A DNA stretch of 64,000 nt from the NCBI RefSeq assembly GCF_055900595.2, contig NZ_CM148325.1; one strand, written 5' to 3'. The notes beneath the pieces are model-generated. The model had not been told where the DNA came from. It searched no databases and was given only the letters and a program-made list of their open reading frames with translations. This document shows positions 13,917 to 14,238 of the stretch, piece after piece. Within the stretch, counting starts at the first letter, position 1. The number at the start of each line of letters is the position of its first letter. Both the position numbers and the translations under genes were made by a program.

Positions 13917-14003
13917 GCGAAGGTGGCGGAATTGGTAGACGCGCTAGCTTCAGGTGTTAGTGTCCTTACGGACGTGGGGGTTCAAGTCCCCCCCCTCGCA
14001 CCA
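13917..14003 (+). tRNA. leuV: tRNA-Leu (CAG), 87 nt with encoded CCA
   Basis: GCGAAGGTGGCGGAATTGGTAGACGCG...GGTTCAAGTCCCCCCCCTCGCACCA; symbol from position in the triplet. Confidence 0.9.
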
Positions 14004-14031
14004 AAAACCACGTTGATATTGCTCGCACTGG

Positions 14032-14118
14032 GCGAAGGTGGCGGAATTGGTAGACGCGCTAGCTTCAGGTGTTAGTGTTCTTACGGACGTGGGGGTTCAA
14101 GTCCCCCCCCTCGCACCA
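14032..14118 (+). tRNA. leuP: tRNA-Leu (CAG); one C-to-T difference in the variable arm versus flanking copies
   Basis: Same 87-nt sequence except gttagtgtTcttacgg. Confidence 0.9.
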
Positions 14119-14151
14119 AACGAGGCGATATCAAAAAAGTAAGATGACTGT

Positions 14152-14238
14152 GCGAAGGTGGCGGAATTGGTAGACGCGCTAGCTTCAGGTGTTAGTGTCC
14201 TTACGGACGTGGGGGTTCAAGTCCCCCCCCTCGCACCA
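14152..14238 (+). tRNA. leuQ: tRNA-Leu (CAG)
   Basis: Third identical 87-nt copy ending CCA. Confidence 0.9.

What the first reader, a model, noticed from the sequence alone, without database searches (positions are those of the whole stretch)
13917..14238. Tandem triplicate tRNA-Leu(CAG) with a single-base variant in the middle copy
Three 87-nt tRNA-Leu genes are separated by 28-bp and 33-bp spacers; the middle copy has a C-to-T change in the variable arm (gttagtgtTcttacgg). This is the expected leuVPQ arrangement and a useful anchor for orientation, not novel in itself.
Basis: seen in the sequence. Interest (0 to 1): 0.15.

Follow-up and report, generated by a model that had tools for sequence, protein, structure and literature searches.

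The report
Ordinary E. coli leucine tRNA operon
This is the well-known E. coli operon of three tandem leucine tRNA genes (leuQ-leuP-leuV), identical to the K-12 reference including the one-base difference in the middle gene, so it is ordinary and useful mainly as a map anchor.

Summary
ARAGORN and Rfam call three 87-nt tRNA-Leu(CAG) genes on the + strand at 13917-14003, 14032-14118 and 14152-14238. The spacers are 28 and 33 nt. The copies differ only by a C-to-T at window 14079 in the middle copy.

All three genes, the promoter, the leader and spacer 1 are base-for-base identical to E. coli K-12 leuQ-leuP-leuV, and K-12 leuP carries the same T. The flanks are syntenic: rsmC upstream, yjjZ and fhuF downstream. 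In transcription order, which is also window + order, the genes are leuQ, leuP, leuV. The only local differences from K-12 are an A6 run instead of A7 in spacer 2 and one extra REP unit upstream.

The T turns a C-G pair of the variable-arm stem into a U·G wobble. It is old: the C-T-C pattern recurs in most sampled Enterobacteriaceae genera. It is sometimes lost: 893 of 5429 E. coli records lack an exact T copy, and 425 genomes, mostly O157:H7, hold a single gene at this locus.

The published mechanism is RNase P separation of the tRNAs and an unstructured Rho-dependent terminator. One side observation: the 5' leader has a hairpin supported by covariation.

Verdict: already known, low interest.

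The parts
12585..13616 (+). rsmC (16S rRNA m2G1207 methyltransferase), the upstream flanking gene and a synteny anchor
   Evidence: ORF of 343 aa. 99% amino-acid identity to K-12 rsmC. Annotated rsmC lies under the match in E. coli genomes.
13620..13780 (.). REP/BIME repeat cluster between rsmC and the tRNA promoter. It holds one more REP unit than K-12 (extra bases at about 13742-13774).
   Evidence: Rfam naRNA4 (RF02564) hit at 13695-13777, 70.3 bits. The three-way alignment shows a 33-nt insertion relative to K-12 that strain WL297 shares.
13809..13823 (+). Conserved upstream block CATTTTTCCAGCAAT, about -74 to -60 from the inferred start. Probably the activator (FIS) region of the promoter.
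   Evidence: The block is conserved across 54 loci from many genera while the surrounding sequence is not. The FIS assignment rests on my own knowledge and on the title of Ross et al. 1999, seen in a reference list. It was not tested here.
13848..13883 (+). Sigma-70 promoter: -35 TTGACG (13848-13853), 16-nt spacer, -10 TAGAAT (13870-13875), then the G+C-rich discriminator GCGCCTCC (13876-13883)
   Evidence: Best promoter-like site in the region, 10 of 12 matches. Identical to K-12. Nearly invariant across genera.
13884..13916 (+). 5' leader, removed by RNase P. It contains a hairpin with a 6-bp core (13891-13896 paired with 13904-13909), which extends to 8 bp with a 3-nt loop in this sequence.
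   Evidence: 99.5% of cells are paired in 36 distinct leaders. Two pairs change on both sides. Slid controls give 10-51% paired. RNAalifold predicts the same helix. The single-sequence fold is -7.2 kcal/mol, z -2.1. The exact transcription start is inferred, not mapped here.
13917..14003 (+). leuQ: tRNA-Leu(CAG), promoter-proximal copy, C at gene position 48
   Evidence: ARAGORN. Rfam 48.5 bits. Identical to K-12 leuQ, b4370.
14004..14031 (+). Spacer 1, 28 nt
   Evidence: Identical to the K-12 leuQ-leuP spacer.
14032..14118 (+). leuP: tRNA-Leu(CAG), middle copy, T at gene position 48 (window 14079). This turns a C-G pair of the variable-arm stem into a U·G wobble.
   Evidence: ARAGORN. Alignment of the copies. 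Identical to K-12 leuP, b4369. Cloverleaf evaluation gives +2.9 kcal/mol with pairing kept.
14119..14151 (+). Spacer 2, 33 nt, with an A6 run where K-12 has A7
   Evidence: Comparison with K-12 and WL297.
14152..14238 (+). leuV: tRNA-Leu(CAG), distal copy, C at gene position 48
   Evidence: ARAGORN. Identical to K-12 leuV, b4368.
14239..14300 (+). Pyrimidine-rich, G-poor, unstructured 3' trailer: the region of the Rho-dependent terminator. It runs into the 3' end of the convergent yjjZ gene.
   Evidence: No intrinsic-terminator-like site on the + strand. 15 C to 4 G in the first 60 nt, with a similar bias in most other genera. PMC2190699 reports an unstructured Rho-dependent terminator and a 3' extension of about 40 nt removed by PNPase and RNase II.
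14277..14513 (-). yjjZ (DUF1435), the convergent downstream flanking gene and a synteny anchor
   Evidence: 78-aa translation, 90% identical to K-12 and 96% to WL297. Annotated yjjZ lies under the match.

Best explanation
This is the chromosomal leuQ-leuP-leuV operon of Escherichia coli, three tandem genes for the major leucine tRNA (anticodon CAG, which reads CUG).

Shown here: the genes, their order, the promoter sequence and the flanking genes are the same as in K-12.

Taken from published work on K-12: one strong sigma-70 promoter with a G+C-rich discriminator makes a single transcript of just over 300 nt. RNase P alone cuts at the 5' end of each tRNA and separates the three precursors, without RNase E. 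Transcription stops at an unstructured Rho-dependent terminator just after leuV, and PNPase and RNase II trim that tail. Each gene encodes its own CCA end.

Inferred: the single C-to-T in leuP gives a U·G wobble in place of a C-G pair in the variable-arm stem. It leaves the fold and the leucine identity intact, so leuP most likely does the same job as its neighbours. The array is a tandem repeat that recombination occasionally shortens or homogenises.
For: Three tRNA-Leu(CAG) genes are called by two independent methods. Genes, promoter, leader and spacer 1 are 100% identical to K-12, including the leuP T. The K-12 annotation names them leuQ, leuP, leuV in transcription order. The rsmC / yjjZ / fhuF synteny is seen in 4705 E. 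coli genomes and in other genera. The promoter is the best sigma-70 match locally and is nearly invariant across genera. There is no intrinsic terminator, and the trailer is C-rich and G-poor. RNase P processing, the Rho-dependent terminator and PNPase/RNase II trimming were shown experimentally for this operon in PMC2190699. The single-base leuP difference in K-12 is stated in PMC12472396, and leuP is listed apart from leuQ/leuT/leuV in a tRNA-seq study. The U·G wobble keeps the 4-bp variable-arm stem.
Against: Nothing contradicts the identification. Expression, processing and aminoacylation were not measured for this strain. They are carried over from K-12 on the strength of sequence identity. 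The claim that leuP is functionally equivalent to its neighbours is an inference. The persistence of the T in the middle copy across many genera could mean it is not equivalent.
Confidence: 0.96

Rival explanations
1. The leuP U variant is a functionally distinct isodecoder that selection keeps in one of the three copies. It might differ in stability, modification, fragment production or processing kinetics. It would not be a silent passenger.
For: Among 57 species-level loci, 51 hold a T copy, and about 40 three-copy arrays have it in the middle position. This holds across Escherichia, Salmonella, Citrobacter, Klebsiella, Raoultella, Kosakonia, Enterobacter and others. Proteus and Xenorhabdus two-copy arrays also hold one T and one C. 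The spacers have diverged in length and sequence over the same span, and recombination demonstrably acts on the array. A neutral difference would be expected to be erased more often.
Against: The change is a conservative G-C to G·U in a stem. From my own knowledge, E. coli LeuRS is not known to read that stem. The T has been lost or moved in several species and is missing as an exact copy from 893 of 5429 E. coli records, including the successful O157:H7 lineage. The middle copy carries additional C-to-T changes in E. albertii and in O111:H8, which looks more like relaxed constraint. No paper found here reports a leuP-specific function. The species sample is incomplete and no tree-based rate test was run.
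Confidence: 0.25
2. The middle copy is under relaxed constraint, a redundant gene that is slowly decaying, and the T is its first tolerated lesion.
For: Only the middle copy shows extra substitutions: C24T in E. albertii and C26T in O111:H8. Each turns a D-stem G-C into G·U. One copy at this locus is enough for viability, since 425 complete genomes have just one.
Against: Apart from position 48, the middle copy is identical to its neighbours over all 87 nt in nearly every genus sampled. Real decay over that time would have produced far more change. ARAGORN and Rfam score it exactly as they score the other two.
Confidence: 0.08
3. The T at 14079 is a sequencing error or a private SNP of this strain.
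For: None beyond it being a single base.
Against: K-12 has the same T. So do 4536 of 5429 E. coli records and most other Enterobacteriaceae. It is described in the literature.
Confidence: 0.01

Closest known systems
E. coli K-12 MG1655 leuQ-leuP-leuV operon (b4370-b4369-b4368)
   Same: All three 87-nt genes are identical, including T48 in leuP. The promoter, leader, spacer 1 and the first 17 nt or more of the trailer are identical. The flanking genes rsmC, yjjZ and fhuF are the same.
   Different: Spacer 2 is 33 nt (A6) instead of 34 nt (A7). There is one extra REP unit between rsmC and the promoter. yjjZ is 90% and fhuF 94% identical at the protein level. The window is in the opposite orientation to K-12 coordinates.
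E. coli strains WL297 and LR-58-1, the closest complete genomes
   Same: WL297 has the same 28/33 spacers, the same three-REP cluster and the same C-T-C pattern. It is 99.3% identical over 13500-14700. LR-58-1 is 99.0% identical over 24 kb.
   Different: Neither is identical to the window. Most E. coli genomes are only about 97% identical over the 24 kb, so the window comes from an uncommon lineage that is absent from the complete-genome set.
Contracted or homogenised variants of the same locus in other E. coli
   Same: Same promoter, leader, trailer and flanking genes.
   Different: O157:H7 strains and a few others have a single tRNA-Leu here, 425 genomes in all. Strain 2022E04-002 has two copies, C then T. 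DCE7 is C-C-C. The window keeps the full ancestral C-T-C state.
leuT in the argX-hisR-leuT-proM operon
   Same: It encodes the same tRNA-Leu(CAG) sequence as leuQ and leuV (PMC12472396).
   Different: It sits at a different locus, in a mixed tRNA operon that RNase E processes (PMC2190699). It is not in this window, which holds only three tRNA genes.

Membership tests
tRNA (Rfam RF00005), class II tRNA-Leu | Cloverleaf recognised by a covariance model or tRNA finder above threshold | tested here: met
   Rfam gives 48.5 bits against a gathering score of 29 for each copy. ARAGORN calls all three.
tRNA (Rfam RF00005), class II tRNA-Leu | Anticodon CAG in a 7-nt anticodon loop | tested here: met
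   ARAGORN places anticodon cag at position 35 in all three copies.
tRNA (Rfam RF00005), class II tRNA-Leu | Long variable arm with its own stem-loop | tested here: met
   A 15-nt variable region forms a 4-bp stem with a 4-nt loop. It appears as an insertion relative to the Rfam model.
tRNA (Rfam RF00005), class II tRNA-Leu | Discriminator A73 followed by an encoded CCA. A73 as a LeuRS identity element is from my own knowledge. | tested here: met
   Each gene ends ...TCGCACCA.
tRNA (Rfam RF00005), class II tRNA-Leu | Charged with leucine and used in translation | not testable with these tools
   Inferred from 100% identity to the K-12 genes.
E. coli leuQ-leuP-leuV operon (orthology) | Three tandem tRNA-Leu(CAG) genes with sequences identical to K-12, including T48 in the middle gene | tested here: met
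   Base-by-base comparison.
E. coli leuQ-leuP-leuV operon (orthology) | Position between rsmC (upstream, same strand) and yjjZ/fhuF (downstream) | tested here: met
E. coli leuQ-leuP-leuV operon (orthology) | A single upstream promoter, TTGACG-16-TAGAAT with discriminator GCGCCTCC, and no promoter-like site in the spacers | tested here: met
   The scan finds the site at 13848-13875 and none inside 13917-14238 on the + strand. The site is identical to K-12.
E. coli leuQ-leuP-leuV operon (orthology) | No intrinsic terminator; an unstructured C-rich, G-poor trailer (Rho-dependent termination) | tested here: met
   Sequence features only. Rho dependence itself comes from PMC2190699 and was not tested here.
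E. coli leuQ-leuP-leuV operon (orthology) | Separation of the tRNAs by RNase P, independent of RNase E | not testable with these tools
   Published for K-12 (PMC2190699). The sequences just downstream of each CCA match the paper's text: AAAACC, AACGAG and AUUAUC.

The most novel reading that the evidence does not exclude
The one-base leuP variant (U·G in place of C-G in the variable-arm stem) is an ancient isodecoder. Selection would hold it in the middle gene of the array across Enterobacterales, which implies a role that the other copies do not supply. Separately, the covarying hairpin in the 5' leader would be a functional RNA element of this operon that has not been described.
Probability: 0.25. 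Interest if true: 0.35.

Novelty: already known. Interest (0 to 1): 0.1.

Why it matters
As found, its value is practical. The operon fixes the window's position and orientation on the E. coli map: the rsmC-leuQPV-yjjZ-fhuF region near 4.606 Mb of K-12, inverted. It also shows that the window comes from an uncommon E. coli lineage.

The side results are modest but reusable. The leuP base difference is far older than E. coli. The array shrinks to one gene in O157:H7 and some other strains. The leader carries a hairpin supported by covariation. If the leuP variant proved to be under selection, it would be a rare bacterial case of a functionally distinct tRNA isodecoder.

Tried and rejected
- Single-sequence MFE folding of the tRNAs did not return the cloverleaf and gave weak z-scores. 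This is usual for tRNAs. I evaluated the cloverleaf explicitly instead and relied on ARAGORN and Infernal.
- My first tabulation of the cross-species arrays used an exact 22-mer and mis-scored arrays whose third copy differs slightly. I redid it from ARAGORN calls.
- I first assumed that E. coli genomes with four matches but no exact T copy were C-C-C. O111:H8 turned out to keep the T and carry a second C-to-T. The 893 records are therefore a mixture, and I could size only the single-copy class (425 genomes).
- A literature search for leuV + Fis + promoter was swamped by word-start matches such as Leuven and FISH.
- The phrase 'leuV promoter' found one irrelevant paper.
- Ross et al. 1999 (PMC93872) is not held, so FIS site positions are not cited.
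- A search for work on an E. coli tRNA-Leu isodecoder found nothing specific.
- A permissive Rfam scan found no described motif in the leader, spacers or trailer.
- The sequencing-error or private-SNP reading of the T was rejected.

Full report
**Observation.** ARAGORN finds three tRNA genes in the whole 64-kb window. All are tRNA-Leu with anticodon CAG on the + strand, at 13917-14003, 14032-14118 and 14152-14238. Rfam's tRNA model scores each at 48.5 bits against a gathering score of 29. The spacers are 28 nt (14004-14031) and 33 nt (14119-14151). The three 87-nt copies differ at one column, gene position 48. It is C in copies 1 and 3 and T in copy 2, at window 14079.

**Identity.** The K-12 MG1655 region holds the same operon on its minus strand. 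In transcription order it is annotated leuQ (b4370), leuP (b4369), leuV (b4368).
- The three genes, the promoter, the leader, spacer 1 and the start of the trailer are identical between the window and K-12, and K-12 leuP has the same T.
- rsmC lies upstream on the same strand (12585-13616). The convergent yjjZ (14277-14513) and then fhuF (14654-15442) lie downstream, as in K-12 and in 4705 other complete E. coli genomes.
- In window + order the copies are therefore leuQ, leuP, leuV.
- Two local differences from K-12 were found: an A6 run instead of A7 in spacer 2 (33 nt against 34 nt), and one extra REP unit in the repeat cluster between rsmC and the promoter.
- The closest complete genomes are WL297 (99.3% over 1.2 kb, with the same spacers and REP count) and LR-58-1 (99.0% over 24 kb). 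Most E. coli are about 97% identical, so the window comes from an uncommon lineage.

**The variant in its structural context.** In the cloverleaf, positions 46-49 pair with 54-57 to form the 4-bp stem of the long variable arm. C48-G55 becomes U48·G55 in leuP. The pair is kept as a wobble, at a predicted cost of 2.9 kcal/mol. Rfam treats the arm as an insertion in its model and flags the A5·C mismatch in the acceptor stem that all three copies share. The single-base leuP difference in K-12 is already stated in the literature (PMC12472396). A tRNA-seq study lists leuP apart from leuQ, leuT and leuV.

**Mechanism.**
- Shown here by sequence: the best sigma-70 match in the region is TTGACG-16-TAGAAT at 13848-13875, followed by the G+C-rich GCGCCTCC. 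This core is nearly invariant across 54 loci from many genera, as is a block at 13809-13823.
- No promoter-like site lies in the spacers, and no intrinsic terminator follows leuV. The trailer is pyrimidine-rich and G-poor, with 15 C to 4 G in the first 60 nt. The same bias recurs in other genera.
- Taken from experiments on K-12 (PMC2190699): the operon gives one transcript of just over 300 nt with a half-life under 30 s. RNase P alone separates the three tRNAs, without RNase E. The transcript ends at an unstructured Rho-dependent terminator, and PNPase and RNase II remove its tail of about 40 nt. Forty nucleotides past 14238 is the stop codon of the convergent yjjZ.
- FIS activation of this promoter is known to me only from the title of Ross et al. 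1999, seen in a reference list. That paper is not held.

**How old and how stable the leuP T is.** An exact copy of the T variant is present in 4536 of the 5429 matching E. coli records, and 893 lack it. The 893 are a mixture.
- 425 genomes have a single tRNA-Leu at this locus, O157:H7 above all.
- DCE7 is C-C-C.
- O111:H8 keeps the T but adds C26T in the same gene.
- A two-copy C-T array also exists.

A scan of one genome per species returned 57 loci. After extracting every tRNA, 51 of them hold a T copy, and about 40 three-copy arrays have it in the middle. These span Escherichia albertii, Salmonella arizonae, Citrobacter, Klebsiella, Raoultella, Kosakonia, Enterobacter, Phytobacter, Pseudocitrobacter and others, and rsmC is syntenic in almost all. 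Proteus and Xenorhabdus have two-copy arrays with one T and one C. A few species are C-C-C, C-C-T or T-T-C. So the T predates E. coli by far and is usually kept in place, but recombination sometimes erases or moves it.

Whether selection holds it there is open. Its persistence argues for selection. Against that stand the conservative nature of the change, its loss in successful lineages, and the extra C-to-T changes seen only in the middle copy. The sample is incomplete, because the pattern required two adjacent copies with a fixed 22-mer, and no tree-based test was run.

**Side observation: a leader hairpin.** The 5' leader contains an inverted repeat, 13891-13898 with 13902-13909. In 36 distinct Enterobacteriaceae leaders, the 6-bp core is paired in 99.5% of cells. 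Two pairs change on both sides: G-C to A-U in 4 sequences and A-U to U-A in 12. No shuffle out of 500 reaches the observed covariation score, and sliding the partners by one to three columns drops pairing to 10-51%. RNAalifold predicts the same helix. The single sequence folds at -7.2 kcal/mol, z -2.1. No Rfam family covers it. The number of independent evolutionary events behind the two covarying pairs is small, and the function is unknown.

**Verdict.** The finding is real, correctly interpreted and already known. It is the canonical leuQ-leuP-leuV operon in its full ancestral C-T-C state. Interest is low.

Noticed in passing
window 13884-13916 (hairpin 13891-13909): The 5' leader of the tRNA operon has a hairpin whose arms covary among Enterobacteriaceae genera (CAATTC/GAATTG, CGATAC/GTATCG, CGATTC/GAATCG). 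99.5% of cells are paired, two pairs change on both sides, and no Rfam family covers it. Function unknown.
   Followed up: partly
L004, L062, L063 (E. coli O157:H7 Z1814 and G5295; AVS0710), locus positions 701-787: In O157:H7 and some other strains, the three-gene array is reduced to one tRNA-Leu between the same leader and trailer. 425 of 5425 complete genomes show this junction. Strain 2022E04-002 (L065) has two copies, C then T.
   Followed up: yes
L064 816-902 (E. coli O111:H8) and L006 12791-12877 (E. albertii): The middle gene (leuP) carries a second C-to-T besides T48: C26T in O111:H8 and C24T in E. albertii. Each turns a D-stem G-C into G·U. Only the middle copy showed such extra changes.
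   Followed up: partly
window 13988-13995, 14103-14110, 14223-14230: Each gene has a run of eight C. PMC8510543 reports these runs as the main indel hotspot among tRNA genes in mismatch-repair-defective E. coli. All three runs are intact here. Several public assemblies show 85-89-nt copies that differ in this run, which may be real indels or sequencing errors.
   Followed up: partly
window 13620-13780; also 5831-6008: REP/BIME repeat clusters hit by Rfam naRNA4. The cluster upstream of the tRNA promoter has one more REP unit than K-12 (about 33 extra bases near 13742-13774), as in strain WL297.
   Followed up: partly
window 14532-14550: A Fur-box-like site, GATAATGATAACCAATATC, with 2 mismatches to the 19-nt consensus. 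It lies in the divergent yjjZ-fhuF intergenic region and is identical to K-12.
   Followed up: partly
window 2000-26000: The best complete E. coli genome is only 99.0% identical over 24 kb, and most are about 97%. Locally, yjjZ is 90% and fhuF 94% identical to K-12 at the protein level while rsmC is 99%. The window is colinear with E. coli but comes from a lineage that is poorly represented among complete genomes.
   Followed up: partly
PMC2190699, Table 1 against its main text: Table 1 of that paper gives the sequences downstream of leuQ and leuP the other way round from its own text. The window and K-12 agree with the text: leuQ is followed by AAAACC and leuP by AACGAG.
   Followed up: yes
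L009, L015, L018, L034, L060 (first copy of the array): In Pantoea, one Citrobacter, Trabulsiella and Pseudocitrobacter vendiensis, the first gene carries a different single change, in the variable-arm loop (TTAC to TTTC). In Citrobacter sp. Awk 4 (L031) the third gene has a shortened variable arm.
   Followed up: no
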